Part shown: positions 16,056 through 40,120 of the stretch, piece by piece
How the letters are laid out: every line of letters starts with the position of its first letter
How positions within the stretch are numbered: position 1 is the first letter of the stretch
DNA from: Candidatus Eiseniibacteriota bacterium
GTDB taxonomy: Bacteria > Eisenbacteria > RBG-16-71-46 > CAVPCR01
Direction: 5' to 3'
Assembly (NCBI GenBank): GCA_963823555.1
Contig: CAWGMA010000001.1
Location: 800,001 to 864,000, forward strand
Length of the DNA: 64,000 nucleotides
Notes under the pieces: model-generated
The model's database searches: none
Told to the model about the DNA's origin: nothing
The model's input: only the letters and a program-made list of their open reading frames with translations
Position numbers and translations under genes: made by a program

Positions 16056-17086
16056 TGTGGTACGAGCCGCTCATCACGCGCGGCCTCGTCCCCGACTGGC
16101 TGATTCGGATCGGGATTCGTCGTTTCCTGCGCCTCGAGCTCGCGCGCCAGGGGAGGGGTGGCCCGGCCGGGGTGGCGGAGCGTCTGTCCGCGCTCCTGAC
16201 CGAGATGCGCTCCGGCCCGATCGCGCTGCACACAGCGGAAGCCAACCGACAGCACTACGAGGTGCCCGCCGAGTTCTTCCGCGAGGTCCTCGGTCCGCGG
16301 CTCAAGTACAGCTGTGCCTACTGGCCAGAGGATATCCGCGATCTGGCCGCGGCCGAGGAACGCATGCTCGAGCTCTACGCCGAGCGTGCTCGGATCGCTG
16401 ATGGCATGAAGATCCTCGAGCTCGGCTGCGGCTGGGGCTCTCTCACGCTGTGGCTTGCCGAGTGCTTCCCGCGGGCCCGCGTGCTGGGCGTGTCCAACTC
16501 CAGCTCGCAGCGCGAGTTCATTCTCGGGCGAGCCGTTGAGCGCGGACTCGAGAACCTCGAGGTCGTGACGGCCGATATGAACGACTTCGCGACCGATCGC
16601 CGGTTCGATCGTGTGGTCTCGATCGAGATGTTCGAGCACATGCGCAACTACGAGCGACTCCTGGCTCGCATTGCGGGGTGGCTGACGACCGATGGGTTCC
16701 TCTTCATCCACATCTTCACCCACGCCCGGTTCGCCTATTCCTTCGACACCGCCGATCCCGAGGACTGGATCGCCCGATACTTCTTCGCCGGCGGCCTGAT
16801 GCCTTCCGACGACATGCTCCCCCGATTCCAGCGGGATCTGGCCCTCGTCGATCACTGGCGCGTGAACGGGATCCACTATGCGCGGACCGCCGAGGCCTGG
16901 CTTGCGAATCTCGAGGTGCGGCGGACCGCGGTGCTCGCCATCTTCGCCCGGGTCTACGGGCCGGAGGCGGCCAGGGCCTGGTATGAGCGGTGGAGGGTCT
17001 TCTTCCTCTCCTGTGCCGAGCTCTGGGCGTTCGGTGGCGGTGAGGAGTGGCTCGTCTCCCACTATCTCTTCAGCAAGCAGAAATAG
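16055..17086 (+). CDS. Second Cfa-family SAM-dependent methyltransferase
   Basis: [22 protein letters not shown] and [11 protein letters not shown]. Confidence 0.88.
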
Positions 17087-17141: not shown

Positions 17142-18371
17142 TCACCGGCTCAGGATCAGCTTCTGGCTGAACGTGCGGCCGGCGGATTCGAAGCGGTAGA
17201 AGTAGACACCGCTCGCCAGGTTCCCTGCCTCCCAGCTGAGCTGGTGGGAGCCGGCCTCCATCTCGCCGTCGACAAGAGTGGCCACGACGCGGCCCAGGCT
17301 GTCGACGATCGTGAGCCTGGCAGGTCCGCCCTGGGCGAGAGTGGCCTCGATCGTCGTCGCCGCGGCGAACGGGTTGGGATAGGCCTGGATGAAGGCGGGC
17401 GGTCCGGCGACTGCCTCCGCCGCGATCCCCGCGGGCTGGACGCGGGCCACGATGGTGCCGATATCACCTACCGCCCACCCAAAGCCGGCACCGGCAAAGA
17501 ACACGTCGTTGAGCTCGTTTGCCGTGCCGCTGGTCTCGGGTGCCCAGTTGAGCCCGCCGTTCACCGTGTGATAGATGGTGCCGAGGTTTCCGGCGGCCCA
17601 GCCCTCGGTCGAGCTCACGAAGAAGACGCTGTCGAGACCGACGTTGATGCCGGTCTCGCGGGGAGTCCATGTTGTCCCGCCGTTGTTGGTGTAGATGAGA
17701 GTCGAGTTCTGGCCGGCGGCCCAGCCCTCGGTGGCCGAGATGAAGAAGACGCCGCTCAGGTCGCTGCCCGTGCCGCTCGTCTGGTCGAACCAGGTCACGC
17801 CGCCATCCGTGGTGGCGCGAATGTTGCCGCCGTCGCCCACGATCCAGGCCATCTGCGACCCGATGGCTGCCGCGTTCTGCCAGCGCACGGTGCCGGTCTC
17901 GACGACGCTCCAGGTGGCTCCCGAGTCGGTCGAGCGCAGGATCACGCCGTCCCGTCCTGCGGCATAGGCCATCCCCTGACTGCCGAAGGCCACTGCGCGC
18001 AGGTTGCTTGCGGTTCCGCTCGTTGCCGGCGTCCAGTTGACGCCGCCATTGGTCGTGCGCCGCACCACGCCGTTGTCGCCGACGATGAGACCGATCGCGG
18101 GGGTGGCGAAGGCGACATCTCCCAGATCCTCGGCCGTCAGATTGACCGGAGTCCAGGTCTCGCCGCCGTCGACGGTGAAGAGCGAGGTCCCGGCGTCGCC
18201 GACCACCCATCCGTTGTCTCGGCTCGTGAACCACACGGCGCTCAGGATATTGGTCGTGCCGCTCACCTGCGGCGCCCACTGCGCCAGCGCCGGACTGGCG
18301 ATCGCAAGGGCGAGGAGTGTGCCGGCAACCATGGCGCCGGTGGTAAGCGAGGTCGATGCGGGACGGAGCAT
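17142..18371 (-). CDS. Secreted Ycf48/BNR-repeat beta-propeller protein with a T9SS/FlgD-like C-terminal domain
   Basis: AGGAGG RBS and signal peptide. About seven repeats of L..V.F.....GW.VG..G....T.DGG.TW, then YPNPF...ASGVYFYRF...KLILSR. Confidence 0.85.
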   Translation of the reverse strand: MLRPASTSLTTGAMVAGTLLALAIASPALAQWAPQVSGTTNILSAVWFTSRDNGWVVGDAGTSLFTVDGGETWTPVNLTAEDLGDVAFATPAIGLIVGDNGVVRRTTNGGVNWTPATSGTASNLRAVAFGSQGMAYAAGRDGVILRSTDSGATWSVVETGTVRWQNAAAIGSQMAWIVGDGGNIRATTDGGVTWFDQTSGTGSDLSGVFFISATEGWAAGQNSTLIYTNNGGTTWTPRETGINVGLDSVFFVSSTEGWAAGNLGTIYHTVNGGLNWAPETSGTANELNDVFFAGAGFGWAVGDIGTIVARVQPAGIAAEAVAGPPAFIQAYPNPFAAATTIEATLAQGGPARLTIVDSLGRVVATLVDGEMEAGSHQLSWEAGNLASGVYFYRFESAGRTFSQKLILSR

Positions 18372-18617
18372 GAGACGTAGCCTCCTTGTTGATCGCGCGC
18401 AGGACGCGGTTAAGTTGACAAAAGGGCTTGGGCCGCCGGTCGTGCTCACTGCTCCGGGCCGCGGCGGCCCCTCGATCCCCTGGCCTCGTCCCTCGAATCG
18501 GGGTCTCGGCCGGGAGCCTCCCGGGAGCAGGGCGTCGTCATGCTCTAGAGACGATTCCGGTGTGGGAAAAATACCCGCGGCCGCAGGGGTGACCGGAAGC
18601 GCCGTGGGAGCGGCCAG

Positions 18618-20288
18618 CTAGGCCAGGCGGCGGACCACGAGCTGGGTCATGTCGTCCTGGGGTTCGCCGCCCTGGATGAACTCGCGGACCCTGGCTTCCA
18701 TCGTGCGCGCGAGCTCGACCGGTTCAGCCTCGCGGTTGGCGGTCAGGAGCTCGGTCACCCGCTCGACTCCGAACTCGCTCTGATCGGGTGCCAGCGCCTC
18801 GCGAATGCCATCGGTGTAGGCGTACAGAATGTCGCCCGGGGCGAGCTCCACCGCCGCCGACTCGAGGGGGGCGTCGGGCAGGATGCCGGCCACGAGTCCG
18901 GTTGCCGCGAGCTCCTCCACGTGATCCCCGCCATTGCGGAGGAGAAGCGGCGCGTCGTGTCCGGCGTTGACGTAGGTCAAGCGCCCGGTCGCCGGGTCGA
19001 GATGGCCGAGGAACATGGTGACGAACTTGTCGGAGTCGATCGAGTCGAAGAGGATGTTGTTCACGCGCCGGCCGATGTCGAGGGGACTCGCTCCGGCCCG
19101 TACCTCGCAGCGCAGCATCGCCTTGAGCATGGACATGAGAAGTGCGGCTCCCATGCCCTTGCCGCAGACATCGGCGATGGCGAAGTAGACGCCGCCGTCT
19201 CCGCAATCGATGAGGTCGTAGTAGTCGCCGCCAACAGCAAGACAGGGTCGGTTGGCGGCGTGAAAGGCGTATCCGCTCCGGTTGACCGGCTCCGCCGCAA
19301 GCAGGCGGCGCTGGATGGCGGCGGCCTGCGAGAGCTCGCGTTCGAGAGCGCGTCGCTCCATCGCCTCCTCCAGGAGCCGCTGGCGCTGGATGTGACCGGC
19401 CGCGATATTGCCGAGGGCGGCGAAGAGCGCCAGCTGCTCGCGGTCGAAGTGCTTGAAGGGCGACAGCGTGTCGACGTAGAGGACCCCGGTCGCCTTGCCC
19501 TCGGCGACCAACGGGGCGCACATCACCGAGAAGGTGCCCTGCATGACCAGGCTCTCGGTGCCGACGAAGCGGCGATCCTCCTGGGCGTTGGCGGAGAGCA
19601 CCGAGTCGAGGTTGTCGACCACGCGGCCCACGATGGTCCGGCTCACGGTCATCCGCACCTCGCGTCCCGAGCGGGCGCGGGCCACGCGCGGCTTGAGTTC
19701 GGGCGGGTCGCCTTCGAGGAGCATCAGGCAGGCACGATCCGCTTCCGGCAGGATCTTCAGAAGCTGGCGCACGATCTCCTCGATCACGTCTCCGAAGGGG
19801 CGAGCGGCGAGGACCGATTCGGTGATCTCCTGGAAGAACTGAAGGATGGCGCCCGAACCTGGGCGTTCCGCCGCGCCGGTGATCTGCTCGAGAGGAATGA
19901 ACGTGGTCGCGTCCAGCTTGCCGGTCCCCTCGTAGGCCAGAACCGTGGTGTCGACCTTGCCCTGGAAGGGATCGTCGGAGATCGTGACATCGGGACCCGC
20001 GGCGATGAGGCGCAGGGTCACGTCTCCGAGCCGAACCTCATCGGTGGATGTGACGCGAGTGGGTCCCTGAATGCGCTCTCCGTTCACGAGCACGCCGTTG
20101 CGGCTGCCCAGGTCCTCGATGACGACATGGCCGCCGGGCGCCTGTTCCAGGCTGGCGTGAACGCGCGAGACCGACTGGTCATGGATGGTGATGTCATTGT
20201 CGGGACTGCGGCCGATGCGCACCTTCTCCGCGCGGACGGGTTCCTCGCGGGGCGCGCCATCGAGGGGGATGATCTTCAAGGCAATCAT
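18618..20288 (-). CDS. FHA-GAF-PP2C (SpoIIE-type) Ser/Thr phosphatase
   Basis: FHA motifs IGRS..SRVHA..DLGSRNG; GAF motif SVMCAPL..GVLYVD; PP2C motifs GGDYYD, ADVCGKG, NAGH, YTDGI and DDMT. Confidence 0.92.
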   Translation of the reverse strand: MIALKIIPLDGAPREEPVRAEKVRIGRSPDNDITIHDQSVSRVHASLEQAPGGHVVIEDLGSRNGVLVNGERIQGPTRVTSTDEVRLGDVTLRLIAAGPDVTISDDPFQGKVDTTVLAYEGTGKLDATTFIPLEQITGAAERPGSGAILQFFQEITESVLAARPFGDVIEEIVRQLLKILPEADRACLMLLEGDPPELKPRVARARSGREVRMTVSRTIVGRVVDNLDSVLSANAQEDRRFVGTESLVMQGTFSVMCAPLVAEGKATGVLYVDTLSPFKHFDREQLALFAALGNIAAGHIQRQRLLEEAMERRALERELSQAAAIQRRLLAAEPVNRSGYAFHAANRPCLAVGGDYYDLIDCGDGGVYFAIADVCGKGMGAALLMSMLKAMLRCEVRAGASPLDIGRRVNNILFDSIDSDKFVTMFLGHLDPATGRLTYVNAGHDAPLLLRNGGDHVEELAATGLVAGILPDAPLESAAVELAPGDILYAYTDGIREALAPDQSEFGVERVTELLTANREAEPVELARTMEARVREFIQGGEPQDDMTQLVVRRLA

Positions 20289-20391
20289 GATTTCGATCCG
20301 GATGGTAGGGATTCGCCCTGCCGCGGGCTACGTCACAGAACGGCGAACAAAGATCATGACCGCCTCGCCAAACGGCGTCAAGCGCAACGAG

Positions 20392-20420
20392 TTGACGGCT
20401 TGCCGGGCACTCGCTAGCCT
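20392..20420 (+). promoter_or_regulatory. Putative sigma-70 promoter of M14 peptidase copy 1
   Basis: TTGACG-N17-TAGCCT; a matching element precedes the paralog at 48542. Confidence 0.5.
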
Positions 20421-20499
20421 TGTTGATGACGAAGTCCTTTGCCGGCGATCGGGGTGGCCTGATGCTCTTCGATCCCGACCCCCCACTGCTGGAGGAGCC

Positions 20500-22425
20500 A
20501 TGCACGCGTTCCTCGCTTCTCGCCGCCGGCTGCGCGCCATGTCCGCCTCCGGCCTCATGCTCCTCACCGTGGCCCTGTCCGCCGGAAGCGCGGCCGGAGC
20601 CGTGTCCCTCGTCCGTGCCCCCGCCGGCGCGCCGGGACTCCTCGATCTCGGTCTCGCCCTCGACGATGCAACGCGCGAGGGTATGGAGGTCGTCTTCCCG
20701 GCCACCGAGGAGGATCTCGCCGCCCTCGCCGGCGCCGGCATTCCGGTCGCGGTCGTGATCGCCGATCTGGAGCGCTTCTACGCCGAGCGGCTCCTCGACG
20801 AGCGGTCCCTGTGGGAGGGGTCTGATCCCGGGGACACGCCGGGATTCGGATTCGGTTCGATGGGTGGTTTCTACACGTGGAGCGAGGTGGTGGGGAAGCT
20901 CGATGAGATGCGGGCCGACTATCCCGCTCTGGTCACCGCCAAGCAGAGCCTGGGGCTCTCGCACGAGGGTCGAGACATCTGGATGGTGAAGATCTCCGAC
21001 AACGCCGACCAGAACGAGGGCGAGCCAGCGATCCTCTACACGGGACTCACGCACGCCCGCGAGCCGATGGGGATGGAGGTCATCCTCTACACCATGTTCT
21101 ACCTGCTCGAGAGCTACGGTGTGAACCCCGAGGCGACGTATCTGGTGAACGAGCGAGAGATGTTCTTCGTCCCGGTCCTGAACCCGGATGGCTATGTCTA
21201 CAATCAGACGACCAACCCAGCGGGCGGCGGCGGATGGCGGAAGAACCGGCGCGATTCGGGTGGCGGCATCTACGGCGTCGATCTCAACCGCAATTACGGA
21301 TACCTCTGGGGTTATGACAACGTGGGATCGAGTCCGACGCCGAGTTCCGGAACCTATCGTGGGCCGGGGCCGTTCTCGGAGCCCGAGACCTCGGCCATCC
21401 GCGGCTTCCATCAGGGGCGGACCATCACCACGGCCTTCCACTATCACGCCTACGGCGGCTACGAGATCCATCCCTTCGCCTACGCCGCCAACGCCCTTCC
21501 ACCGGCGCCCGATCTGGCCCTCTACGAGCGCTTCGGCAGCGACATCTCGGCGATGAACGGTTATCTCGTCGGCAACTTCGCGCAGACGCTTGGCTATGTG
21601 GCCAACGGCGAATCCCTCGACTGGAGCTACGGCGAGCAGATTGAGAAGAACAAGGTCTTCGCGTTCTTGCCGGAAGTGGGTACGGGGAGCGACGGATTCT
21701 GGCCGCTGTCCTCCCGGATCGTCCCGCTTGCCGAGCTGCATCTGCCCCCGAATCTCTACTGGACCTGGATCGCGGGGGCCCGCGCGGAGCTCGACGGCGT
21801 GACCGCCGGACCCGAGGTTCCCCTGGGAGCGATGTCGCCCGTGGTTGTCGCGGTCGAGAACCGCGGCCTCGGTGCGGCGGCGAGCGATCTCACGGTCGCG
21901 CTCGCCTCGAGCGATCCATACGTCACGATCGGGGTCCCGGAGAAGCCGTTCCCCGTGGTCCCGCCGCTCACCATCGCAGACAACAGCACGGATCCACTCG
22001 AGTTCTTCGTCTCGGGGAGCGCGCCGCCCAATCATGGGATCGCGCTCGAGGTCACGCTCTGGCAGGGGAACGTGCAGCGGGGGCAGACAACCATCGAGGT
22101 GTCGACGCCGGCGGCTTCAGGGGTGGCCGAGACCGGCGCGCCTGGCCTCGATGGGTTCTGGGTTCGTGTTGCACCGAACCCGATGGGGGAGGGGACCGAG
22201 ATCCGGTTTGCCGTCGACGGGCGGCAGACGGTCGACCTCACGGTGGTCGATGTGACCGGCCGCGTGAGGCGCCATCTCCGCACGCGGGAGCTTTCGCCCG
22301 GCGAGCACCGCGTCGCCTTCGACGGGCGGGATGATGAAGGGGCGCCCTTGCCCGGCGGTATCTATGTCGTGAGGCTCAGGGTCGGGCCGGCAGCCACGCA
22401 CGCGCGGTTGGTCGTCCTGCGCTGA
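20500..22425 (+). CDS. Secreted M14 zinc carboxypeptidase (carboxypeptidase T-like) with a FlgD-like C-terminal domain, copy 1
   Basis: GGAGG RBS, signal peptide, HARE, NPDG, WRKNR, GVDLNRN, SEPET, third Zn ligand in FHYHAY, catalytic Glu in LPEVG, and the PNPM...GGIYVVRL tail. Confidence 0.9.
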   Translation: MHAFLASRRRLRAMSASGLMLLTVALSAGSAAGAVSLVRAPAGAPGLLDLGLALDDATREGMEVVFPATEEDLAALAGAGIPVAVVIADLERFYAERLLDERSLWEGSDPGDTPGFGFGSMGGFYTWSEVVGKLDEMRADYPALVTAKQSLGLSHEGRDIWMVKISDNADQNEGEPAILYTGLTHAREPMGMEVILYTMFYLLESYGVNPEATYLVNEREMFFVPVLNPDGYVYNQTTNPAGGGGWRKNRRDSGGGIYGVDLNRNYGYLWGYDNVGSSPTPSSGTYRGPGPFSEPETSAIRGFHQGRTITTAFHYHAYGGYEIHPFAYAANALPPAPDLALYERFGSDISAMNGYLVGNFAQTLGYVANGESLDWSYGEQIEKNKVFAFLPEVGTGSDGFWPLSSRIVPLAELHLPPNLYWTWIAGARAELDGVTAGPEVPLGAMSPVVVAVENRGLGAAASDLTVALASSDPYVTIGVPEKPFPVVPPLTIADNSTDPLEFFVSGSAPPNHGIALEVTLWQGNVQRGQTTIEVSTPAASGVAETGAPGLDGFWVRVAPNPMGEGTEIRFAVDGRQTVDLTVVDVTGRVRRHLRTRELSPGEHRVAFDGRDDEGAPLPGGIYVVRLRVGPAATHARLVVLR

Positions 22426-22551
22426 AACGCGACCAGGCCGACGGCAATTAATCGACTAGTAGATCCCTTTATATGGTTAGTGATGGAAAGTGCTCAAGGT
22501 AGATGGACCTTTCGTCTTGTCTCATGATTCCATATAATCTTTTTAATAACA

Positions 22552-22565
22552 TTGGTTTACGTCAA
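22552..22565 (+). promoter_or_regulatory. FNR/CRP-family-like binding site
   Basis: TTGGT-TTAC-GTCAA matches TTGAT-N4-ATCAA at 8 of 10 positions, inside the AT-rich intergenic region. Confidence 0.45.
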
Positions 22566-22597
22566 CGACGCCAGCCCTGGCTGCCAGCGGGATATAG

Positions 22598-22626
22598 TTG
22601 ACATGTAGAGCGTGATATCTGAAAAT
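22598..22626 (+). promoter_or_regulatory. Putative sigma-70 promoter of the respiratory operon
   Basis: TTGACA-N17-GAAAAT. Confidence 0.45.
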
Positions 22627-22710
22627 ATCCGCCATCGACCTGGGCCCTCGGCGCTGCCGACTGGAGCCCCACGAAGCCCGGACAGGAAACGAGGCCAGGG
22701 AGGTCGGTCG

Positions 22711-24645
22711 TTGGCAGAGGCGAGCGGCGCGCGAGTTCGACTGGGAGTCGAGGTCCCCGGCGGTGGCTACCACCGCAGCCTGATCTCCTGCCAGCAGGCC
22801 TGTCCGGTCCGCACGGACGCCCGCGGGTATGTGCGCGCCATTGCGGATGGTCGCTTCGAAGAGGCCTACCTCATCGCCCGCGGGCCGAACCCCTTCGCAT
22901 CCATCTGCGGGCGCATCTGCGGGGCGCCGTGCGAGGCTGCTTGCCGCCGCGGGCGCATCCCTCGCCTCGACCCCGACGGCGCCTATCTGGGTCCGGACCG
23001 CCCGGTCGCCATCCGCGCTCTCAAGCGCTTTGCCTGCGAGCAGGCGGGACCCGATGTTCGCCCGCCCGAGGATGTCGTAGACGATCTGCGCCGCTTCATT
23101 CCGGCGGTTGCCGCCGACGCCGAGGAGATGGCGCATCTCCTGCGCGGCGCGGTCCAGGGGCGCTTCGCGCCGGCCCAAGGCGAGTCCGTGGCGATCATCG
23201 GCTCGGGCCCGGCGGGGCTCGCTGCCGCGCACGACCTGGCCCTGCTCGGCTTGAGACCAATCGTCTACGAGATGGAGTCGGTCCCCGCCGGCATGCTCGC
23301 CCTGGGCGTCCCCGAATACCGCCTGCCGCGCGAACTCATCCGCCGGGAGATCGAGGTCATCCGCGCCCTCGGGGTCGAGGTGCGGTGTGGGGTCCTGGTG
23401 GGTCGAGACGTGACCTTTGCCGACCTCCGCGGCGGGCATGCCGCGGTCTTGATCGCGGTCGGCGCCAAGCGCCCGCGAGGCCTGAACCTGCCCGGCGAGT
23501 CCGGGCCGCGCGTGTTCGGCGGCGTCGATCTGTTGCGCGCAGTCGCTCTCGGCGAGTCCGTCGACCTGGGTCGTGAGGTCGTCGTCATCGGCGGCGGCAA
23601 CGTAGCCTACGATGTCGCGCGCACCGTCGTGCGCCAGGTCGCCTACGACGCCGCGCGCACCGCGGCGCGTCTTCCCGGCCGGCGTTCGGTCCGGCTCGTC
23701 TCGCTCGAGACGCTCGAGGAGATGCCGGCCGATACGCTGGAGATCGTCGAGGGCGACGAGGAGGGGATCGAACGGGTCGGCGGTTACGGGCCGGTCGAGA
23801 TCCAGCGCACCGGCGACGGCCGAGTATCCGGTGTCCTCTTCCGCCGTTGCGTCCGCGCCTACGACGATGAGCGCCGCTTCGCGCCGATCTACGACGACAG
23901 CGATCGCCGGACGCTGGGCTGCGACACCGTGCTCATCGCCGCCGGCCAGACCACCGATCTCTCCTTCCTCGCCGAGGGCGGTATGGACATCGAGAGCTTC
24001 CGCCCGGGCTGGCCCCGGGTCGATGCCGACACCCTGGCGACGACCGGCCGTGGCGTCTTCGTTGCGGGCGATCTGGCTCATGGCACACGTCTTCTCATCG
24101 ACGCCGTCGCCTCGGGGAAGAGGGCGGCGCGCTCGATCTACACGCACGTGACCGGCCGTCAGCTCCGGCCGGAGGCCCTCGAAGCGCACCTCGATCTCGG
24201 CGCCTACCGCCGGGAGCCCGGATATGAGCGCATTCGACGGATCGAGATTCCGGTCCTCGAACCCGAGGAACGCTTCGCCCGACCGGGAGCGGCGGTCGAG
24301 ATCGGCTACGACACCGCGCGCGCCACTCGCGAGGCCTCGCGTTGCCTCGATTGCGGTGTCACCCCGGTCTTCGATGGCACGCGCTGTGTCCTCTGCGGCG
24401 GCTGTGTCGATGTCTGTCCCACCACTTGCCTCAAGCTGGTCCCGCTCGCCGATCTCGAGCCGACGGAGGGGCTTCGAAGTCTCATCGACTGCCTTCTCGG
24501 TCCGGACGTCGATCCCGCCGCCCACTCCGCCATCCTCAAGGACGAAGATCGCTGCATCCGCTGCGCGCTTTGCGCCATGCGTTGCCCGGTGGCGGCGATC
24601 ACCATGGAGCGAGTTCAGTTCACGACCGCGTGGAGGTCCTCATGA
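22711..24645 (+). CDS. NAD(P)-dependent FAD/FeS oxidoreductase (GltD/NfnB/DsrL-like) with a C-terminal 2x[4Fe-4S] ferredoxin domain
   Basis: Start taken as the TTG after GGGAGG. Motifs: CQQACP, CGRICGAPCEAAC, IIGSGPAG, VIGGGNVA, AGD, EASRCLDC, CVLCGGCVDVCP and CIRCALCAMRCP. No signal peptide. Confidence 0.88.
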   Translation: MAEASGARVRLGVEVPGGGYHRSLISCQQACPVRTDARGYVRAIADGRFEEAYLIARGPNPFASICGRICGAPCEAACRRGRIPRLDPDGAYLGPDRPVAIRALKRFACEQAGPDVRPPEDVVDDLRRFIPAVAADAEEMAHLLRGAVQGRFAPAQGESVAIIGSGPAGLAAAHDLALLGLRPIVYEMESVPAGMLALGVPEYRLPRELIRREIEVIRALGVEVRCGVLVGRDVTFADLRGGHAAVLIAVGAKRPRGLNLPGESGPRVFGGVDLLRAVALGESVDLGREVVVIGGGNVAYDVARTVVRQVAYDAARTAARLPGRRSVRLVSLETLEEMPADTLEIVEGDEEGIERVGGYGPVEIQRTGDGRVSGVLFRRCVRAYDDERRFAPIYDDSDRRTLGCDTVLIAAGQTTDLSFLAEGGMDIESFRPGWPRVDADTLATTGRGVFVAGDLAHGTRLLIDAVASGKRAARSIYTHVTGRQLRPEALEAHLDLGAYRREPGYERIRRIEIPVLEPEERFARPGAAVEIGYDTARATREASRCLDCGVTPVFDGTRCVLCGGCVDVCPTTCLKLVPLADLEPTEGLRSLIDCLLGPDVDPAAHSAILKDEDRCIRCALCAMRCPVAAITMERVQFTTAWRSS

Positions 24646-25157
24646 GCACACCCTCGCCGGTTCTCGGCGCGCCCTCTCCGGTCGCGCCGGAGCGTTCCCG
24701 TCTCGCCCCAGAGCCCATGCCGCGCCGCGACTTTCTCGGCTTGGCCGCGACGCTCTCGGCCTTGCTCGCACTCGGCTTCGCCACGCTGGGGATGCTCCGG
24801 CTGCCGAAGGCTGCGGTCATCCCCGCGCCCTCGCGGCGCTTCCGGGTCAGCCTGCCGGAATCGCTGGTTCCGGGCGCGCCGTTCCTTCCCCCCGGCCGCT
24901 CGGTGGCCGTGTTCCGTGATGCCGGTGGCGTCTATGCCATCTCCCTCATATGCACTCACCTCGGGTGCATCGTCAAGCACGTGGCGAACGGGTTCGATTG
25001 CCCCTGTCACGGCTCGCGTTTCGCCGCCGACGGGGAGGTCACCAAGGGACCGGCTCCGAAAGCGCTGCCCTGGCTCCAGGTGAAGCGGACCGCAGCGGGC
25101 ACCTACATCGTGGACGAGGGGAAAGAAGTATCACCCGGGACCAAGGAGATGGCATGA
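24642..25157 (+). CDS. Rieske [2Fe-2S] protein of a Rieske/cytochrome b complex
   Basis: Tat-like RRDFL followed by a TM anchor; CTHLGC and CPCHGS boxes; ATGA overlap with the upstream gene. Confidence 0.93.
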   Translation: MSTPSPVLGAPSPVAPERSRLAPEPMPRRDFLGLAATLSALLALGFATLGMLRLPKAAVIPAPSRRFRVSLPESLVPGAPFLPPGRSVAVFRDAGGVYAISLICTHLGCIVKHVANGFDCPCHGSRFAADGEVTKGPAPKALPWLQVKRTAAGTYIVDEGKEVSPGTKEMA

Positions 25158-26689
25158 GCACGGGGCTCGAGCGCTTCTCGGCCAATCTGCGCGCCATCCC
25201 GCGCGCGTTCGCCCGGAGCTTCTATCGTTCGGGAACGCCGCGCACCGACCGCAGCCGCTCGTCATTCGTCTTCAACAGCCTCTTCCTCCATTTCCACTCG
25301 GTGCGCATTCACCGCTGGACGCTGCGCTGGCGGACCACGCTCGGGCTCGGCGTGATCTCGTTCTCCGCGTTCCTCCTGACGCTGGTGACGGGCATTCTCC
25401 TCATGTTCTATTACAAACCCTATCCGAGCGCCGCGTACGATTCGATCAAAGACATTCACTTCGTCGTTCCCACCGGGCAATTCATCCGCAACATCCACCG
25501 CTGGGCGGCCCAGATCATGGTGGTGGCGGTCATCCTGCACATGGTGCGAGCCTTCTATACCGCTGCCTACCGGACGCCCCGCGAGTTCAACTGGGTGATG
25601 GGGATGGGACTGCTCGTCGTCACGCTCGGGCTCTCCTTCACTGGCTATCTCCTGCCCTGGGATCAGCTCGCCTACTGGGCGATCACGATCGGCTCCAACA
25701 TCGCGCAGTCGCCCCGCGAAGTCACCGATGCGCTCGGCATCACCCGCTGGTTCGACATCGGAGGATTGCAGAAGCTCCTCCTCCTCGGCTCCGAGGAGAT
25801 CGGGGAGGAGGCGCTCATCCGCTTCTATCTCCTGCACGTGATGATCCTGCCGCTCGTGCTCGCCGCTCTCGCCGGCGTGCACTTCTGGCGCGTACGGAAG
25901 GACGGAGGGCTCGCGCGGCCGGCTGATGTCGATCGCCGCCTGGGGCCGCCGCCCGCCGGCACCTATCCCGTCTTCACCGAGGAGCCGAAGCGCACCTATC
26001 ACCTGGCCGCGGTCGTCGCCGGCAAGACCCCCGCGGTCGGCAACGGTCCCGAGCAGACGGTGCCGGCGGTGCCTCATCTGTTCTATGCCGAGGCGGGTGT
26101 CTTCATGCTCACGGTGCTCGTCTGTCTCGCGCTCGCTCTCGGCTGGGATGCGCCCCTCAAGGAGCTCGCCAACCCCGCCGTGCCCGAGAATCCGGCCAAG
26201 GCGCCCTGGTACTTCCTCGGCCTGCAGGAGCTGGTCTCGTACTCGGCGTTCATGGGCGGGATCGGGATCCCGGCCATTGTCATCCTCGGATTGCTCCTGA
26301 TCCCGTATCTGGATCGCGAGACGGAAGGCACGGGCGAGTGGTTCGGGGGGCCGGGCGGGGGCCGCCTCGTTCTCCGGTCCGCCCTCTTCGGACTTGCTGC
26401 TGTGCTCCTCGTCGAGGTCATCGCCATCCACTTCGGCTGGATCCGGCAATGGTGGCCGGCGGTCCCGCAGATCGTCATCACGCTCCTCAACCCGGGTACC
26501 GTCCTGACCGCCATCTATGCCGGCTACTCGATCTGGTGCGTCAAGCGCTACGATTCCACTCGTGCCGGGGCGCTCGGGCTGTTCACCTGTTTCCTCGCCG
26601 GGTTCCTCGTGCTCACGATCGTGGGCACGACCTTCCGCGGCCCAAACTGGGAGTTCTTCTGGTCCCGGTCCCAGTGGCCGGCGCACTGA
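25154..26689 (+). CDS. Cytochrome b (b6-like domain fused to subunit IV, with extra TM helices)
   Basis: Heme ligands in IHRWAAQIMVVAVILH and LLHVMILPLVLAALAGVH; TGYLLPWDQLAYWA; NPAKAPWYF at the PEWY position. Confidence 0.92.
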   Translation: MSTGLERFSANLRAIPRAFARSFYRSGTPRTDRSRSSFVFNSLFLHFHSVRIHRWTLRWRTTLGLGVISFSAFLLTLVTGILLMFYYKPYPSAAYDSIKDIHFVVPTGQFIRNIHRWAAQIMVVAVILHMVRAFYTAAYRTPREFNWVMGMGLLVVTLGLSFTGYLLPWDQLAYWAITIGSNIAQSPREVTDALGITRWFDIGGLQKLLLLGSEEIGEEALIRFYLLHVMILPLVLAALAGVHFWRVRKDGGLARPADVDRRLGPPPAGTYPVFTEEPKRTYHLAAVVAGKTPAVGNGPEQTVPAVPHLFYAEAGVFMLTVLVCLALALGWDAPLKELANPAVPENPAKAPWYFLGLQELVSYSAFMGGIGIPAIVILGLLLIPYLDRETEGTGEWFGGPGGGRLVLRSALFGLAAVLLVEVIAIHFGWIRQWWPAVPQIVITLLNPGTVLTAIYAGYSIWCVKRYDSTRAGALGLFTCFLAGFLVLTIVGTTFRGPNWEFFWSRSQWPAH

Positions 26690-26717
26690 GGGGGAGAGCA
26701 GTGAACGGGGCAGCGAC

Positions 26718-28390
26718 ATGAACACGGGGCGGAACAAGCACCTCCTCCTGTGGATGAGCCTCGCCACGCTCGTGCTGCTCGTGGGGGCGGCGCTCCGCGA
26801 GAACGTGGCCAGTGAGTGGCGCGTGCTCCAGCGCCGTTACCAGTCGCGGCTGCCCGCCGAGCAGGCGCGCGATTTCAGGGTACAGCTCCGCCAGATCTTC
26901 TCGCCCCAGGTCGATGCGGTCGATCGCTGCGTGAGCTGCCACGTGGGCATGGCGCCGGGAGAGAGTGGTATCGACGGCGATCGGCTCTACGCTCGCCACG
27001 CCGCTGTCGGACACGAGCCGGGCGAGATCGGGTGCGTCATCTGTCATGGCGGTCAGGGTCGGGCCACGCGGAGCGCCGATGCGCACGGCACGGTTCACCA
27101 CTGGCCGCAGCCGATGATCCCAGCCGCGATGTCCGATGCCGGTTGCGGAGCCTGCCACACGCATCTCGCGGTGCCGGCGGCCGCCGAGTTCGAGCGCGGG
27201 CGGGGGCTCTTCGAGCGCCTCGATTGTCTCGCCTGTCACGCCCTGGACGGGAGAGGAGGCACCCTCAGGCCGGGACAGGGGATGGTGAGCGGTCCCGATC
27301 TCTCGCGCGCCGGCTCGAGCGGCTTCGATGCCGACTGGTACGTCCGGCACCTCGCGCATCGCGACAGCGCTGGAAGCGGTCCCTGGCGTTCCTCGATGAG
27401 CGAGATCGCCGCGACGGATCGCGCCGCGCTCGATATCTTCCTCCACTCGCGGGTCGGTGCACCCGGGCTCGTCGCGGCCAAGGTGGCGTTTCACTCGCTG
27501 GGTTGTCGAGGTTGCCACAAGGTGGGTGGTGTCGGGGGTGACGATGGGCCCGACCTCACGCGCGTGGGCGAGAAGGATCCGGGGCAGCTCGACTTCACGC
27601 ATGTCCCGGGCGCGCCGACCCTTGCCAACTGGTTCGCCGAGCACTTCCGGGCTCCGGGGCGCGTCGTCCCGGGGTCGGCAATGCCCGTCCTCGGGCTGAC
27701 GGCGGAGGAGATCGAGAAGCTCACCTATTACATGTTGTCGCTGCGGCGGTCTGATCTCCCCGAGGCTTTCTGGCCCCGGGACCGCATCCGCGCCGAGCGC
27801 TTCGGCGAGCGCGAATTTGCCACAGATGGCGCCACGCTCTACGGCACCTTCTGTGCAGCCTGTCACGGGCCCGAAGGCCAGGGGATGCGCTACGCGGAGA
27901 CGACCGCGTTCCCGGCCATCGGCACGGCGGATTTCCTCGGTCTCGCGACGGACGACTTCATCACCGAGACCGTGCGGCGCGGGCGGCCGGGACGGCGTAT
28001 GCCGGCCTGGGGTGAGGGAGCGGGGGGGCTCCGGCCCGAGGAGATCCAGGCCGTCGTCGCCTACGTGCGGGGCATGGGCGGTGTTCCGGAGCCGGCCGAC
28101 AGCCGCCCTGCGCGCTGGGTCACGGCCGACCCCGAAGCCGGCGCCCGCCTCTTCCTCGCCAACTGTGCCCGCTGCCATGGCGAAGCGGGCGAGGGTGGCG
28201 AGGGCCCGGCGCTCCATAATCAGGTGCTGCTCTCGACCGCGACCGACACCTACCTGATCGAAACCATCCGTCGCGGCCGCCGCTCGACGACCATGCCGCC
28301 GTTCGCGACCCCGTCGACGACCTGGCGGCTCCTCACCGATCCCGAGATCGAGTCGATTGTCGCCTTCATCCGCACGTGGGAGGTGCGACC

Positions 28391-28394
<4 letters not shown>
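26718..28394 (+). CDS. Membrane-anchored multiheme cytochrome c (7 CxxCH)
   Basis: N-terminal TM helix; CVSCH, CVICH, CGACH, CLACH, CRGCH, CAACH and CARCH; MP distal-ligand motifs in the C-terminal domains. Confidence 0.92.
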
Positions 28395-33087
<4,693 letters not shown>

Positions 33088-33129
33088 TCGATATGGTCCG
33101 GGCGCCGGAGTGCCCGCCAAGGAGCAGTG

Positions 33130-34029
33130 ATGAGAGGATTGTTGCGTAGCAAGCTGGGGCGCGGGGTGCTCGTGCTCGGGGGGATCGCCGTTCTCACGGC
33201 CGCCTGCGGCAAGAGCGGTCCGCCGCGCTCGCCATCCGAGGTGCTCGTGCTCAGCCGGGCCGCGATGGCCACGGACCCGGCGGCCGACGAATGGCGGCAG
33301 GTGCCGGTGCACACGGCGGCGCTCCTGTTACAGGACATGGTCGAGCCCCGGCTGTTGACCCCCTCCACGGCATCGGTCGACGTACAGGCGATGACCGACG
33401 GCAGCCGGATCGCCTTCCGTCTGGCCTGGATCGACTCGAGCGGTAGCGACCTCCCCGGGGCCAGCCGTTTCTCGGATGCCTGCGCGGTGCAGCTCCCGGT
33501 CACCCTCTCTCCCGATGTGCCGGCCCCGCAGATGGGGGAGACTGGACGCCCGGTCGAGATCAGCTTCTGGCGGGCTTCATGGCAGGCGGTCGTCGATGGG
33601 CGGGCGGATGACATCAAGGCGCTCTATCCTGGCGCCGCCGTCGATCACTATCCATTCCAGGCGCCGACGCTCGAGGCCGGATCCGCGGACCAGGAGGCGA
33701 TGGCGGCGCGCTACGCGCCGGCTCGCACGCTTGGCAACCGGATGGCGGGCCCGCGAGAGCGGGCGGTCGAGGATCTGATCGCCGAGGGACCAGGCACTCT
33801 CCATGAGGCGCCCGAGCTCAGCTCCGACGGTCGCGGCGTGCGCACGCAGACGGGGTGGGCGGTGGTGATCACGCGCCCCCTACCGGCGGAGCTCAGACAG
33901 GCGGAGCGCGGTCAGGTCGCGTTCGCGGTCTGGGAAGGCGGCCACGACGAGGCGGGGGCGCGAAAGATGCGCACCGGATGGGTGCCGCTGGCCATCGAGG
34001 AAGCGGGAGGGAAGGGAGGAGGACATTGA
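33130..34029 (+). CDS. Heme-b gamma subunit (EbdC/NxrC-like DOMON fold), predicted lipoprotein
   Basis: LTAAC lipobox; FSDACAVQLP..QMG and AFAVWEGG..E.GARK, which supply candidate Met/Lys heme ligands. Confidence 0.8.
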   Translation: MRGLLRSKLGRGVLVLGGIAVLTAACGKSGPPRSPSEVLVLSRAAMATDPAADEWRQVPVHTAALLLQDMVEPRLLTPSTASVDVQAMTDGSRIAFRLAWIDSSGSDLPGASRFSDACAVQLPVTLSPDVPAPQMGETGRPVEISFWRASWQAVVDGRADDIKALYPGAAVDHYPFQAPTLEAGSADQEAMAARYAPARTLGNRMAGPRERAVEDLIAEGPGTLHEAPELSSDGRGVRTQTGWAVVITRPLPAELRQAERGQVAFAVWEGGHDEAGARKMRTGWVPLAIEEAGGKGGGH

Positions 34030-34703
34030 TGCCTCATCCGCCGCCGGAATCGCATTCTCCGGCGCCGAAGCTGATCGAAAGCGCCGAGTGGCGACTGCTG
34101 GGTCTCTTGTTCGAGCGGCCGCGCCCGGCCTGGCGAGAGGAGATCGCCGCACTCGCCCGTGAGGTCGCGAGCGAGGGTCTCAAGGCGGCGGCGCAGGCGG
34201 CCTCGGCGGCGACCGAAGGGGAGTACCTGGCGCTTCTTGGTCCGGGTGGCGCCGTTTCACCGCGGGAGGTCGGCTACCGCGGCATGGAAGATCCGGGACG
34301 GCTCCTTGCCGACATCGGTGCCTTTCATCGTGCCTTTGCCTTTCATCCGATCTCAGAGGATCCCGTCGATCACGTAGCGCAGGAGATCGGGCTAGTCGGC
34401 TACCTGAGCCTGAAGGTGGCCTTCGCCGAGCACGAGGGCAACCCGGAGGCGGCAACGACCACGGCCCGGGCGCGCGACACGTTCATCGCCGCGCACCTCG
34501 GCGTCTTCGCTCATGAGTTCGCCCGCCGTCTCGGAGCGGCGGCGAGCGCACGCAGCGTGGGCTACCTTGCTCTGGCTGCTCGTATTCTCGCCACCCGCGT
34601 GCCGCAGTCTGCGCAAGCTGCGCCCAGAGCTGCCGCCCTGCCCATCTTGACCGCCGATGGCCCCGACGAGATGGGCTGCGGATCCTGCCCCGACCCGGGA
34701 TAG
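34029..34703 (+). CDS. TorD/DmsD/NarJ-family molybdoenzyme maturation chaperone
   Basis: EDPVDHVAQE motif and F...HL; last gene of the molybdoenzyme operon. Confidence 0.82.
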   Translation: MPHPPPESHSPAPKLIESAEWRLLGLLFERPRPAWREEIAALAREVASEGLKAAAQAASAATEGEYLALLGPGGAVSPREVGYRGMEDPGRLLADIGAFHRAFAFHPISEDPVDHVAQEIGLVGYLSLKVAFAEHEGNPEAATTTARARDTFIAAHLGVFAHEFARRLGAAASARSVGYLALAARILATRVPQSAQAAPRAAALPILTADGPDEMGCGSCPDPG

Positions 34704-34780
34704 GGACTGGGACCGGGGCCAGGCCGGCCAATGCGTTCGCCCGCGTGTCCATGCGAGGCGCAGCGCTCCAAGGCCGCCGG

Positions 34781-35890
34781 TCAATCACCATTCCCCATGC
34801 CGGGAGCGCGATCGCGCTCCTCGTCCTCGCTGGGTCGGCGGCGGCCGATCCAGCCCAGGCGCCGGAAGTAGAGGAGCATGCCGGTCGCCGTTCCTACCAT
34901 CAGCACCATCAGGACCGGATAGGCCCAGCGCTGGCGCAGCTCCGGCATGAATTCGAAGTTCATGCCGTAGATGCCGGCCAGGAACGTCAGCGGAATGAAG
35001 ATGCTGGCCATGATGGTCAGAACCTTCATGACCTCGTTCGTCCGGTTGCTGATCGAGGACAGGTAGGTGCCGAGAAGGGAACCTGCCATCTCGCGATAGG
35101 ACTCGAGCAAGTCCCCGATCTGTACGCAGTGGTCATAGCAGTCGCGGAGGTATAGCCGCGCCGTTTCTCCGAAGTAGTCGCTGTCTCCGCGCACCAGCAT
35201 GTTGATGGCATCCCGTTGCGGTCCGACGGCCCGCCGCAAACCCAGGAGCTGGCGCTTGATCCGGTTGATTTCATTGAGCGTGCTCGACTTCGCCTCGAAG
35301 ACGAGCCGGTCCTCGAGAGCCTCGAACTCATCGCCGAGTTTCTCGATGACCGGGTAGTAGCCGTCGATGACGGCGTCGATGAGGGCGTAGGCGAGGTAGT
35401 CGGCCCCGGCGTTGCGGATCGGTCCCTTGCCCTGGTCGATGCGCGTGCGCACCGGGTCGAAGACGTCCCCGTGCCGTTCCTGGAACGTCAGCACATAGCC
35501 CCGGCCGACAAAGATGCTGACCTGTTCGATGTCGAGCCTCTCATCGAGGAGCCGCACCATGCGGGTGATGTAGAGCTGATGATGGTCATAGGTCTCGGTC
35601 TTGGGTCGCTGCGGGGTGTTGACCACGTCCTCGAGAGCAAGGGGATGGATGGAGAAGCGTGCGCCGATGGCCTCGATGACACGCCGGTCCCCGAAACCCT
35701 GGACGTCGATCCAGGTCACACCGGAGGCGTCCGGAGCCGGAGGGGAGATGGACGCCGGGTCGGCAATGTCCTCGCGCTCGAGGGCGGAGCCAGAGAAGAA
35801 GATGCGCTGGATGCGCGGCGCCGGCGAGTCATGGGCGATCATCAAGGTGCCGGGTCGGGCGCCGACCGGTGGATGGCGCTTGCGAAACAC
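34781..35890 (-). CDS. corA: Magnesium/cobalt transporter CorA
   Basis: HPLALED, QRPK, GIYGMNF and MPEL motifs; two C-terminal TM helices; GTG start after GGAGG. Confidence 0.93.
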
Positions 35891-35953
35891 GATTCCCTCC
35901 TGCACCTCCCGACGCGCAGTGGCACGTGGAACGACGGACACCCCGCCGGCGCG

Positions 35954-37191
<1,238 letters not shown>

Positions 37192-37269
37192 GGGATCTCC
37201 TTTCCTGGGTCGCTGCAGGGCTCGGCTCGTCGGTCCATTCTACATCGAGTGTCGAGACATGGCCTCATG

Positions 37270-40118
<2,849 letters not shown>

Positions 40119-40120
40119 GA

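What the first reader, a model, noticed from the sequence alone, without database searches (positions are those of the whole stretch)
22711..34703. One operon joining an NAD(P)-linked Rieske/cytochrome b complex to a periplasmic NXR-type molybdoenzyme through a 7-heme cytochrome
Seen: eight co-directional genes, mostly with overlapping stop/start codons, in the order flavo-FeS oxidoreductase, Rieske, cyt b6+IV, heptaheme cyt c, Tat-exported Mo alpha, FeS beta, heme-b gamma, TorD chaperone. There is no NarI-type anchor and no NarK in the operon. Known: anammox bacteria encode Rieske/cytb complexes with an NAD(P)H oxidoreductase and multiheme cytochromes, apart from their NXR cluster; haloarchaeal periplasmic Nar is linked to a Rieske/cyt b pair. 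Inference: this could be a single supercomplex spanning cytoplasmic NAD(P)(H), the quinone pool and periplasmic nitrate/nitrite. It could run as Q-cycle or bifurcating nitrate respiration, or as nitrite oxidation with built-in reverse electron transport to NAD(P)+, in a lineage not known for either. I know of no characterised system with this exact layout.
Basis: partly seen in the sequence, partly recalled or inferred. Interest (0 to 1): 0.92.

Follow-up and report, generated by a model that had tools for sequence, protein, structure and literature searches.

The report
Nitrate-respiring operon with NAD-linked bc complex
Eight tightly packed genes, kept in the same order in many unrelated bacteria, encode an outward-facing molybdenum enzyme of the nitrate/nitrite type beside a Rieske/cytochrome b complex and an NAD-type flavoprotein; together they likely respire nitrate and may turn the spare energy into NADH, a reaction proposed for anammox bacteria but still untested.

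Summary
There are eight intact co-directional genes, and five of the seven junctions overlap. All eight lie in the same order in 56 of the 80 closest loci; the other 24 are cut by a contig end or a gap. In 121 genomes of one acidobacterial family, the two halves occur in exactly the same 25.

The alpha subunit keeps the NXR active-site residues but forms its own branch outside the Kuenenia-type NXR group. Carriers look like facultatively anaerobic heterotrophs: carbon-fixation markers are rare, and NrfA is enriched (18 of 25 carriers against 24 of 96 non-carriers). Sister operons attach the same four front genes to a cbb3 oxidase or a perchlorate-reductase-like enzyme, both electron sinks.

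Best reading: menaquinol-to-nitrate respiration, probably bifurcating to NAD+ (0.55; nitrate as acceptor about 0.8).

It is partly in print: seven genes in the same order in Thermogutta terrifontis (2017), an operon-bearing cytochrome b clade G' (2017), and the anammox front module (2025). My searches found no biochemical study. This scan found the cassette several times before on other DNA. Verdict: new variant of a known kind.

The parts
22598..22626 (+). Sigma-70-like promoter candidate (TTGACA-17-GAAAAT) in the AT-rich gap before gene 1
   Evidence: Only hit in 22300-35000, 10 of 12 matches; shuffles give 1.1 +/- 0.9, so the position, not the count, is suggestive
22711..24645 (+). Cytoplasmic FAD / 4x[4Fe-4S] NAD(H) oxidoreductase with DsrL/NfnB-like domain order, 644 aa
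   Evidence: Fer4_20, Pyr_redox_2 and a C-terminal Fer4 pair; xLE at the place of the NADP-binding YRR, Glu in 61 of 61 rows (motif rule from PMC7596348); no TM helix
24642..25157 (+). Rieske protein with Tat signal/anchor, Ser-x-Phe (predicted mid-to-high potential) type, 171 aa
   Evidence: CTHLGC in 65 of 65 rows, CPCHGSxF in 60 of the 62 rows printed; best PDB hit is an anammox-type Rieske, 9RK4
25154..26689 (+). Long cytochrome b (b6 + subunit IV fused), APWY Qo motif, no haem cN cysteine, 511 aa
   Evidence: His115/129/228/243 conserved; Gly at the b6 Cys position in 65 of 66 rows; KAPWYF in 66 of 66; His46, Arg248 and Lys249 invariant where present
26718..28394 (+). Membrane-anchored heptahaem cytochrome c; predicted four mostly bis-His haems followed by three His/Met class I domains, 558 aa
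   Evidence: 7 CxxCH, and 7 in 66 of 70 relatives; TM 8-26; conserved Met322/428/526 after the last three motifs
28391..31960 (+). Tat-exported Mo-bisMGD alpha subunit, NXR/pNar type, 1189 aa
   Evidence: 896 bits to Kuenenia NxrA 7B04 versus 174 to 4YDD and 130 to NarG; CAPNDTHNC in 75 of 80 rows and WHTDLPPGH in 77 of 80, the rest gaps; RRxF in 67 of 70
31960..33087 (+). Beta subunit with a NarH-like Cys pattern (three [4Fe-4S], one [3Fe-4S]), 375 aa
   Evidence: TIGR03478 best hit; Cys spacing
33130..34029 (+). Haem-b gamma subunit (EB_dh/NxrC type) with Met/Lys ligands and a lipobox-like anchor, 299 aa
   Evidence: Aligns to 7B04_C and 2IVF_C with the Met and Lys ligand positions kept; PxMG and KMR in 66 of 66 rows; loose lipobox pattern in 58 of 65
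34029..34703 (+). TorD/NarJ-type maturation chaperone, 224 aa
   Evidence: Weak PF02613 and TIGR03482 hits, below cut-off; position conserved

Best explanation
The operon likely encodes a self-contained nitrate-respiring chain, in which menaquinol is predicted to be oxidised at the outer (Qo) site of the Rieske/cytochrome b complex and its two electrons split. One electron would run Rieske > heptahaem cytochrome c > haem-b gamma > FeS beta > Mo site, reducing nitrate to nitrite in the periplasm. The other would run haem bP > bN > a possible extra His46-ligated haem > four FeS clusters > FAD, reducing NAD+ in the cytoplasm. The NADH would then be re-oxidised by complex I, so energy that a plain Q-cycle would waste on the 0.5 V drop is kept.

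Shown: the genes, their cofactor motifs, their strict linkage, and the host's menaquinone, complex I and oxidase genes. Inferred: the substrate and direction (about 0.8 for nitrate as acceptor), the physical contacts, and bifurcation to NAD+ (about two in three, given nitrate reduction).
For: (1) Linkage. All eight genes are in order in 56 of 80 loci. In one family, the 25 of 121 genomes with the alpha are exactly the 25 with a cytochrome b of at least 70% identity, on the same contig in 23 of 25.

(2) Active site. It matches KsNXR Cys67/Asn70/Asp71/Asp275.

(3) The front four genes are a plug-in module for electron sinks. In 4 of 4 sister loci fetched (of 7 genomes with a 59-62% cytochrome b) they precede a PcrA-like alpha-beta-gamma-delta set. 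In 2 of 2 more distant loci they precede cbb3 CcoN/CcoO, with the flavoprotein in one.

(4) Carriers look heterotrophic. Among 51 carrier genomes, ACL was found in 1, ACS in 2 (weak), RuBisCO-family hits in 10 but only 1 above 400 bits, NirK in 3 and NrfA in 25. Within one family NrfA is in 18 of 25 carriers against 24 of 96 non-carriers.

(5) Cultured relatives. The nitrate-respiring T. terrifontis has Rieske, cyt b, cyt c, alpha, beta, gamma and TorD as consecutive genes, plus NrfAH (PMC5673643). A 75%-identical alpha occurs in Thermopirellula anaerolimosa, titled an obligate anaerobe.

(6) Neighbours. An Rrf2 gene lies directly upstream in 27 of 56 loci; RIC/YtfE, Crp/Fnr and Mo-cofactor genes recur nearby.

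(7) Bifurcation features. The host has the futalosine menaquinone pathway. The Rieske has the Ser-x-Phe signature of Kustd1480, measured at +335 mV. His46 and Arg248/Lys249 sit at about the spacing of the modelled extra haem in the Kuenenia complexes (PMC12954380). The haem cN cysteine is absent, which would remove the quinone-reducing short circuit that those authors name as the main obstacle. The energy balance is +0.08 to +0.14 eV per quinol.
Against: There are no expression, biochemical or structural data for this operon.

An A-type oxidase is present in 48 of 51 carriers, so nitrite oxidation with oxygen is not excluded. KsNXR works in both directions (PMC8387239 abstract). Kao and Hunte call APWY characteristic of reverse operation, citing a Geobacter p-cresol cluster, though without biochemistry.

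The host itself has no NrfA, NirK, NirS, NosZ, NarG or NapA hit (genome 92.5% complete), so its nitrite has no known fate. The NrfA association is across related genomes and has no unrelated-gene control, so it is overstated.

The His46 mapping is by spacing (202 residues here against 204 in Kuenenia), not by alignment. The energy margin is thin. One cbb3 sister locus (L118) has no flavoprotein within the 20 kb fetched. T. terrifontis proteins were not compared with these, and THTE_1513 was not identified.
Confidence: 0.55

Rival explanations
1. Nitrate respiration with the flavoprotein running the other way: NADH feeds electrons into cytochrome b to refill the quinol pool (FNR/b6f-like), or the complex runs an ordinary Q-cycle with the flavoprotein as an accessory.
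For: NADH to quinone is downhill. DsrL-family enzymes are reversible (PMC7596348). A self-contained NADH-to-nitrate cassette would travel well by lateral transfer, and its distribution is patchy: 3 of 41 genomes around the host, host included, have a hit of 76% or more.
Against: It bypasses proton-pumping complex I, which the host seems to have (NuoF hits); Hauser et al. reject it for Kuenenia on this ground. The haem cN cysteine of a b6f-type Qn site is missing.
Confidence: 0.22
2. Periplasmic nitrite oxidation (mixotrophic or for detoxification). Electrons would leave through the heptahaem cytochrome to an oxidase, or enter the Rieske/cytochrome b in reverse.
For: The closest solved structure is a bidirectional NXR and the FS0 Asp is shared. 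An A-type oxidase is present in 48 of 51 carriers. APWY is proposed to mark reverse operation. Suarez et al. 2023 hypothesise NxrA for planctomycete enzymes of the wider clade.
Against: The alpha lies outside the Kuenenia-type group (896 versus 1782 bits for a member of that group; separate branch). Carbon-fixation markers and NirK are nearly absent. Reverse flow at Qo would consume NADH and is about 0.1 eV uphill. Sister operons end in reductases.
Confidence: 0.1
3. The molybdoenzyme reduces another high-potential oxyanion (chlorate, perchlorate, selenate) or an N/S-oxide, with the same front module as donor.
For: The alpha is only about 41-42% identical to the Kuenenia-type group. The module already pairs with a PcrA-like enzyme. 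Type II enzymes are promiscuous (own knowledge).
Against: The Asn/Asp active-site residues are kept, the NrfA association and nitrosative-stress neighbours point to nitrate, and T. terrifontis grows with nitrate. No chlorite dismutase appeared among the recurrent neighbours.
Confidence: 0.08

Closest known systems
Kuenenia stuttgartiensis Rieske/cytochrome b complexes Kuste4569-4574 and Kustd1480-1485 (Hauser et al. 2025, PMC12954380; proposal by Kartal 2013, seen only as cited there)
   Same: Rieske + cytochrome b + multihaem cytochrome c + cytoplasmic FAD/4xFeS NAD(P) oxidoreductase; Ser-containing Rieske; P-WY Qo motif; extended subunit IV; candidate His and Arg/Lys for the modelled extra haem; menaquinone host.
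   Different: Here cytochrome b and subunit IV are fused and the haem cN Cys is absent. The cytochrome has seven haems, not six or eight. The high-potential partner is encoded in the operon and is a Mo nitrate/nitrite enzyme, not an HAO-like protein. Hosts are non-anammox heterotrophs.
Thermogutta terrifontis THTE_1512-1506 cluster (Elcheninov et al. 2017, PMC5673643)
   Same: Rieske, cytochrome b, cytochrome c, alpha, beta, gamma and TorD as consecutive locus tags in this order; the authors suggest complex III serves nitrate growth; NrfAH is present.
   Different: The paper calls the enzyme cytoplasmic NarGHI and, in the passages and table rows read, does not mention the flavoprotein, seven haems or bifurcation; it reports no biochemistry. 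Sequence identity to this operon was not tested, so it is very likely, but not shown, to be the same system.
Cytochrome b clade G' (Dibrova et al. 2017, PMC5600118) and the APWY clade (Kao and Hunte 2014, PMC4122944)
   Same: Long cytochrome b with GLGx and P-WY motifs in 'large conserved operons' of unknown function; the figure legend lists Pyr_redox_2, Fer4_20, Molybdopterin, EB_dh and Nitrate_red_del among neighbours.
   Different: No function or mechanism was assigned. I could read only the figure's text, so which leaves carry those neighbours was not seen.
Haloarchaeal periplasmic Nar with NarB/NarC (Haloferax mediterranei pHM300)
   Same: Order Rieske, cytochrome b, alpha, beta, EB_dh haem protein, TorD; outward-facing nitrate reduction linked to a Rieske/cytochrome b, with antimycin sensitivity reported (via PMC4683180).
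   Different: The alpha is of another branch (25-27% identity); there is no NAD flavoprotein and no multihaem cytochrome in that cluster.
Kuenenia NXR-ABC (PDB 7B04; Chicano et al. 2021, PMC8387239)
   Same: Tat-exported alpha, 3Cys/1Asp FS0, Asn70 and Asp275, NarH-like beta, Met/Lys haem-b gamma.
   Different: Separate branch at roughly half the score of true group members; it sits in a 15-gene cluster with a tubule-forming subunit there, against an 8-gene Rieske operon here.

Membership tests
Periplasmic type II DMSO-reductase alpha-beta-gamma enzymes (NXR/pNar) | Tat signal on alpha; FS0 motif, substrate Asn and Mo-ligand Asp | tested here: met
   RRxF in 67 of 70; CAPNDTHNC and WHTD conserved and aligned to KsNXR residues
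Periplasmic type II DMSO-reductase alpha-beta-gamma enzymes (NXR/pNar) | Four-cluster beta, Met/Lys haem-b gamma, TorD-type chaperone | tested here: met
Anammox/Nitrospira-type NXR clade | Alpha falls inside the Kuenenia-type group | tested here: not met
   896 bits to 7B04 against 1782 for L101; separate branch with WHTDLPPGH instead of WHGDQAPGH. The tree had no named Nitrospira or Kuenenia row; L101's group stood in for them.
Anammox/Nitrospira-type NXR clade | Nitrite-oxidising activity | not testable with these tools
   Needs enzyme assay
Cytoplasmic NarGHI | NarG over the family cut-off, NarI anchor, no Tat signal | tested here: not met
   TIGR01580 149 bits against a cut-off of 1084; no NarI; Tat present
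Anammox-type NAD(P)-linked Rieske/cytochrome b complex | Rieske, four-His cytochrome b, P-WY Qo motif, multihaem cytochrome c and FAD/FeS oxidoreductase in one cluster | tested here: met
Anammox-type NAD(P)-linked Rieske/cytochrome b complex | Split cytochrome b / subunit IV with the CxGG haem cN site | tested here: not met
   Fused 511 aa protein; Gly at the Cys position in 65 of 66 rows; Kuenenia rows read CMGG
Anammox-type NAD(P)-linked Rieske/cytochrome b complex | His and Arg/Lys for the modelled inter-monomer haem b | tested here: inconclusive
   His46, Arg248 and Lys249 invariant; spacing 202 against 204; Kuenenia sequences not in hand for alignment
Anammox-type NAD(P)-linked Rieske/cytochrome b complex | Quinol-driven NAD(P)+ reduction | not testable with these tools
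   Unproven even for the anammox complexes
Cytochrome b clade G'/APWY | Long cytochrome b, GLGx at the cN site, APWY | tested here: met
Cytochrome b clade G'/APWY | Tree placement with the published G' sequences | not tested
   Those sequences were not fetched
Haloarchaeal NarBC-GH system | Alpha of the haloarchaeal NarG branch | tested here: not met
   25-27% identity, separate branch; the gene order is shared
DsrL | N-terminal 2x[4Fe-4S], FAD/NAD(P) Rossmann folds, linker, C-terminal 2x[4Fe-4S] | tested here: met
DsrL | Host carries dsrAB | not tested
   Not searched; the operon context points to a different partner

The most novel reading that the evidence does not exclude
A widespread, swappable front module (NAD flavoprotein, high-potential Rieske, cN-less APWY cytochrome b, multihaem wire) performs quinol-based electron bifurcation to NAD+ whenever it is plugged into a high-potential terminal reductase: this nitrate enzyme, a perchlorate-reductase-like enzyme or cbb3 oxidase. 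The NXR-type version is one supercomplex that raises the energy yield of nitrate respiration in common soil, sludge and sediment heterotrophs above that of Nar or Nap. This would be a mode of energy conservation never demonstrated for a Rieske/cytochrome b complex.
Probability: 0.4. Interest if true: 0.88.

Novelty: new variant of a known kind. Interest (0 to 1): 0.68.

Why it matters
First, quinol-driven NAD(P)+ reduction by a Rieske/cytochrome b complex has been proposed for anammox bacteria, which lack genetic tools (PMC8387239), and it remains unproven. For one of their complexes no high-potential partner had been named (PMC12954380). This operon supplies a partner in the same transcription unit, and close versions appear to exist in cultured planctomycetes, so the idea becomes directly testable.

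Second, the alpha is annotated as nitrate reductase or nitrite oxidoreductase, and was found in 25 of 121 genomes of one acidobacterial family and in at least 577 stretches of the species collection. If it reduces nitrate, surveys that count such genes as nxrA overestimate nitrite oxidisers and miss a route into nitrate ammonification.

Tried and rejected
Assembly chimera: rejected by synteny. The assembly has local frameshift-rich stretches (window about 35.8-40.3 kb; the oxidase locus), but the eight ORFs are full length against relatives.

L043 as an exception lacking gamma and TorD: rejected, since a run of N follows beta.

FNR control: the window has one 2-mismatch box at about 22552-22565, but 0 of 56 relatives have a box with at most 1 mismatch (3 of 56 in coding controls), so it is rejected (consensus recalled). 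The dyad search upstream gave no shared motif (best 10 of 59 regions, absent in the window).

NADP specificity: rejected by motif.

Plasmid carriage: not found among 72,556 plasmid records. The best hit is Natronococcus at 50%, without the front module.

Expression: no RNA holder listed. The T. terrifontis table shows THTE_1507 and 1509-1513 expressed at low, similar levels on two sugars under microaerophilic growth, which says nothing on direction.

The profile search returned mostly fragments; ten of its longer hits were used for the tree. The flavoprotein search in a second family found matches in 10 of 61 genomes and was not followed up.

Literature searches aimed at a prior description found no biochemical study of this layout. 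The library lacks most subscription papers; Kartal 2013, de Almeida 2016, ten Brink 2013 and Dibrova 2013 were not read.

Full report
OBSERVATION. The eight genes are present as described, all on the + strand and full length. Five of seven junctions overlap and two have gaps of 28 and 42 nt. A sigma-70-like site lies about 85 nt before the first gene, and no convincing internal promoter or terminator was found (these are consensus scans only). GC content matches the flanks. The window is G000:C1:800001-864000 of a 4.6 Mb, 92.5% complete genome, in which the block is single copy. The closest named locus, L051 (88% alpha identity), is labelled Candidatus Eisenbacteria, so the host probably belongs there.

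CONSERVATION. All eight genes lie in order in 56 of 80; three of these have the flavoprotein cut by the contig start. The other 24 keep the order as far as their DNA reaches: 23 end at a locus or contig edge and L043 at a run of N. Record titles span Acidobacteriota, Planctomycetota, Binatia, Myxococcota, Methylomirabilis, Eisenbacteria, Acidimicrobiia and others. In 121 genomes of the family of G048 (a Bryobacteraceae locus), 25 have the alpha. Exactly these 25 have a cytochrome b of at least 70% identity, on the same contig in 23. The cassette is patchy near the host: 3 of 41 genomes including G000. More distant alphas occur without the front half, in Natronococcus occultus (50%) and L101 (40%).

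ANATOMY OF THE MOLYBDOENZYME. The alpha scores 896 bits against Kuenenia NxrA and at most 175 against other solved enzymes. It keeps the FS0 Cys/Asp ligands, the substrate Asn and the Mo-ligand Asp named by Chicano et al. (PMC8387239: abstract and passages) in every relative that covers them. It is not a member of the Kuenenia-type group: L101 scores 1782 bits, and the tree separates the two groups. That tree is FastTree on 18 of the 80 loci plus selected outgroups, with L101's group as stand-in and no named Nitrospira row. Gamma keeps the Met/Lys haem ligands and has a lipobox-like start.

ANATOMY OF THE FRONT MODULE. The cytochrome c has an N-terminal helix, four haems with mostly conserved His partners and three class I His/Met domains, which reads as a wire ending at high potential (inference). 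Cytochrome b has the four b-haem His in b6 spacing, APWY at Qo and Gly in place of the haem cN Cys. The flavoprotein has the DsrL domain order and xLE where NADP enzymes have YRR. By the rule of Loffler et al. (PMC7596348: passages) it is NAD(H)-type.

THE MODULE IS SWAPPABLE. Seven non-carriers had a full-length cytochrome b at 59-62% identity. I fetched four of the seven, and all four hold flavoprotein, Rieske, cytochrome b and a hexahaem cytochrome followed by a type II alpha-beta-gamma(-delta) set closest to PDB 4YDD/5E7O (about 900 bits; that these are perchlorate reductase is recalled). Two more distant loci hold Rieske, cytochrome b and a heptahaem cytochrome followed by cbb3 CcoN and CcoO with the active-site His kept; one also has the flavoprotein. 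An oxygen reductase is a one-way sink, so there the high-potential arm must run outward from quinol. Earlier notes of this scan report the cbb3 form in chlamydiae and other phyla; I checked only my two loci.

HOST PHYSIOLOGY. I searched 51 carriers: G000 plus 50 of the 56 complete loci, with six Bryobacteraceae-type loci dropped for the limit. Genomes with a hit: ATP-citrate lyase 1; acetyl-CoA synthase 2 (64 bits); RuBisCO family 10, with 1 above 400 bits; cytoplasmic NarG 9; NirK 3; NrfA 25; A-type oxidase 48. Completeness was not shown for these genomes. Within one family NrfA was found in 18 of 25 carriers and 24 of 96 non-carriers (odds ratio 7.7, Fisher p 3e-5); kin are not independent and I ran no control gene. 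G000 has futalosine menaquinone genes, NuoF homologues, a bd oxidase and an alternative complex III-like cluster beside an A-type oxidase locus. It has no hit for NarG, NapA, NrfA, NirK, NirS or NosZ. An Rrf2 gene sits directly upstream in 27 of 56 loci, but not in the window. RIC/YtfE, Crp/Fnr, a porin of the alginate-export family and Mo-cofactor genes recur nearby.

MECHANISM. With menaquinone at -74 mV, nitrate at +430 mV and NAD at -320 mV (textbook values), splitting one quinol between nitrate and NAD+ releases 0.08-0.14 eV after paying 0.12-0.18 V to move the electron inward. Hauser et al. (PMC12954380: abstract, passages and sections 3.3 and 4 read; supplement not read) measured +303 and +335 mV for the two Kuenenia Rieskes, the higher one having Ser-x-Phe as here. 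They modelled an extra haem held by His43/His62 near Arg247 or Arg266/Lys267, and named quinone reduction near haem cN as the main obstacle. Here His46, Arg248 and Lys249 are invariant at a similar spacing and the cN Cys is gone, which fits a complex built to pass the low-potential electron to the flavoprotein (inference). Running the machine backwards from nitrite would need NADH as the second donor and is about 0.1 eV uphill, so it cannot supply NAD(P)H by itself. Against this reading, Kao and Hunte (PMC4122944: passages and one section) link APWY to reverse operation, most carriers can respire oxygen, and the host's nitrite has no known sink.

PRIOR ART. Elcheninov et al. (PMC5673643: passages and supplement rows) list THTE_1512 Rieske, 1511 cytochrome b, 1510 cytochrome c, 1509-1507 Nar and 1506 TorD in T. 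terrifontis, suggest complex III serves nitrate growth, and call the enzyme cytoplasmic. Dibrova et al. (PMC5600118: passages, one section and the text of Figure S1; the drawing itself was not visible and may show this very operon) describe clade G' operons of unknown function. Suarez et al. (PMC10732223, passages) and Zheng et al. (PMC10811736, passages; author name recalled) place the Thermogutta enzyme among NXR-like or Natronococcus-like proteins. Haloferax has the Rieske, cytochrome b, alpha, beta, EB_dh, TorD order, and Methanoperedens has a similar logic in separate clusters (PMC4683180, passages). Passages of PMC3903129, PMC6050957, PMC11929135 and PMC13335318 were also read. For Thermopirellula I saw only the title of its description in a reference list, and I did not see its gene neighbourhood. 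Eight searches found no biochemical study of the eight-gene layout. This scan has reported the cassette at least five times in other genomes.

VERDICT. The feature is real, strictly conserved and widespread. It works like a haloarchaeal Rieske-linked periplasmic nitrate reductase joined to an anammox-like NAD-linked Rieske/cytochrome b complex, but fails membership in both the Kuenenia-type NXR group and the split, cN-bearing anammox complexes. It is partly noticed in print and was not found characterised. Interest 0.68: each half is known, but the join makes a standing bioenergetic proposal testable.

Noticed in passing
L113:2806-13115 (+); L114, L115, L116 (G143, G195, G091, G123): Sister eight-gene operon with the same front module, a hexahaem cytochrome and a PcrA-like type II molybdoenzyme (TIGR03479 over cut-off); L113 has a fused NfnAB-like gene just downstream.
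   Followed up: partly
L117:4638-17556 (+); L118:5387-10957 (+): Rrf2, Rieske, APWY cytochrome b, heptahaem cytochrome and cbb3 CcoN/CcoO, with the same flavoprotein family after ccoO in L117, followed by a Cu ATPase.
   Followed up: partly
L101:6849-14494 (-) (G003): Kuenenia-type NXR (1782 bits to 7B04) in a relative of the host, with a gamma fused to a dihaem cytochrome c and no Rieske module, next to genes that look like a benzoyl-CoA reductase cluster (read by eye); its close relatives are named from Rokubacteria, KSB1 and Methylomirabilia.
   Followed up: partly
L103:8841-14493 (Natronococcus occultus plasmid 2): A 50%-identical alpha, unannotated in the record and split over two reading frames near its start, followed by beta and TorD, beside a haem-copper oxidase-family gene and RIC; no Rieske module.
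   Followed up: partly
window 35800-40300 (-): Frameshift-rich stretch holding pieces of an aldo/keto reductase, a 4Fe-4S protein, DUF362 and DUF6599; it looks like local long-read indel errors, as does the oxidase locus at G000:C1:552900-554300.
   Followed up: no
G000:C4:98722-103357 (-): Second cytochrome b fused to a nine-haem cytochrome c, downstream of a five-haem cytochrome.
   Followed up: no
G000:C2:492972-500801 (-); C4:289623-301985; C1:1598109-1599663 (-): Large multihaem cytochrome clusters, including an ORF with 36 CxxCH motifs in 944 aa, and a frameshifted protein with eight haem motifs over two frames that might be a nitrite-reducing octahaem (not tested).
   Followed up: no
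window 10987-17086 (+): Fatty-acid desaturase, amine oxidoreductase, DUF1365, two cyclopropane synthases and DUF1295: a compact lipid-modification cluster.
   Followed up: no
window 17142-22425 and 45385-55709: Several secreted proteins with FlgD-Ig / T9SS-type C-terminal tails, including two M14 carboxypeptidases and a glucose/sorbosone dehydrogenase-like protein.
   Followed up: no
G000:C1:1192084-1192181: A tRNA-Sec is present in the genome.
   Followed up: no
L002 and L059: One genome carries two copies of the molybdoenzyme half; G089 and G194 also gave two hits.
   Followed up: no
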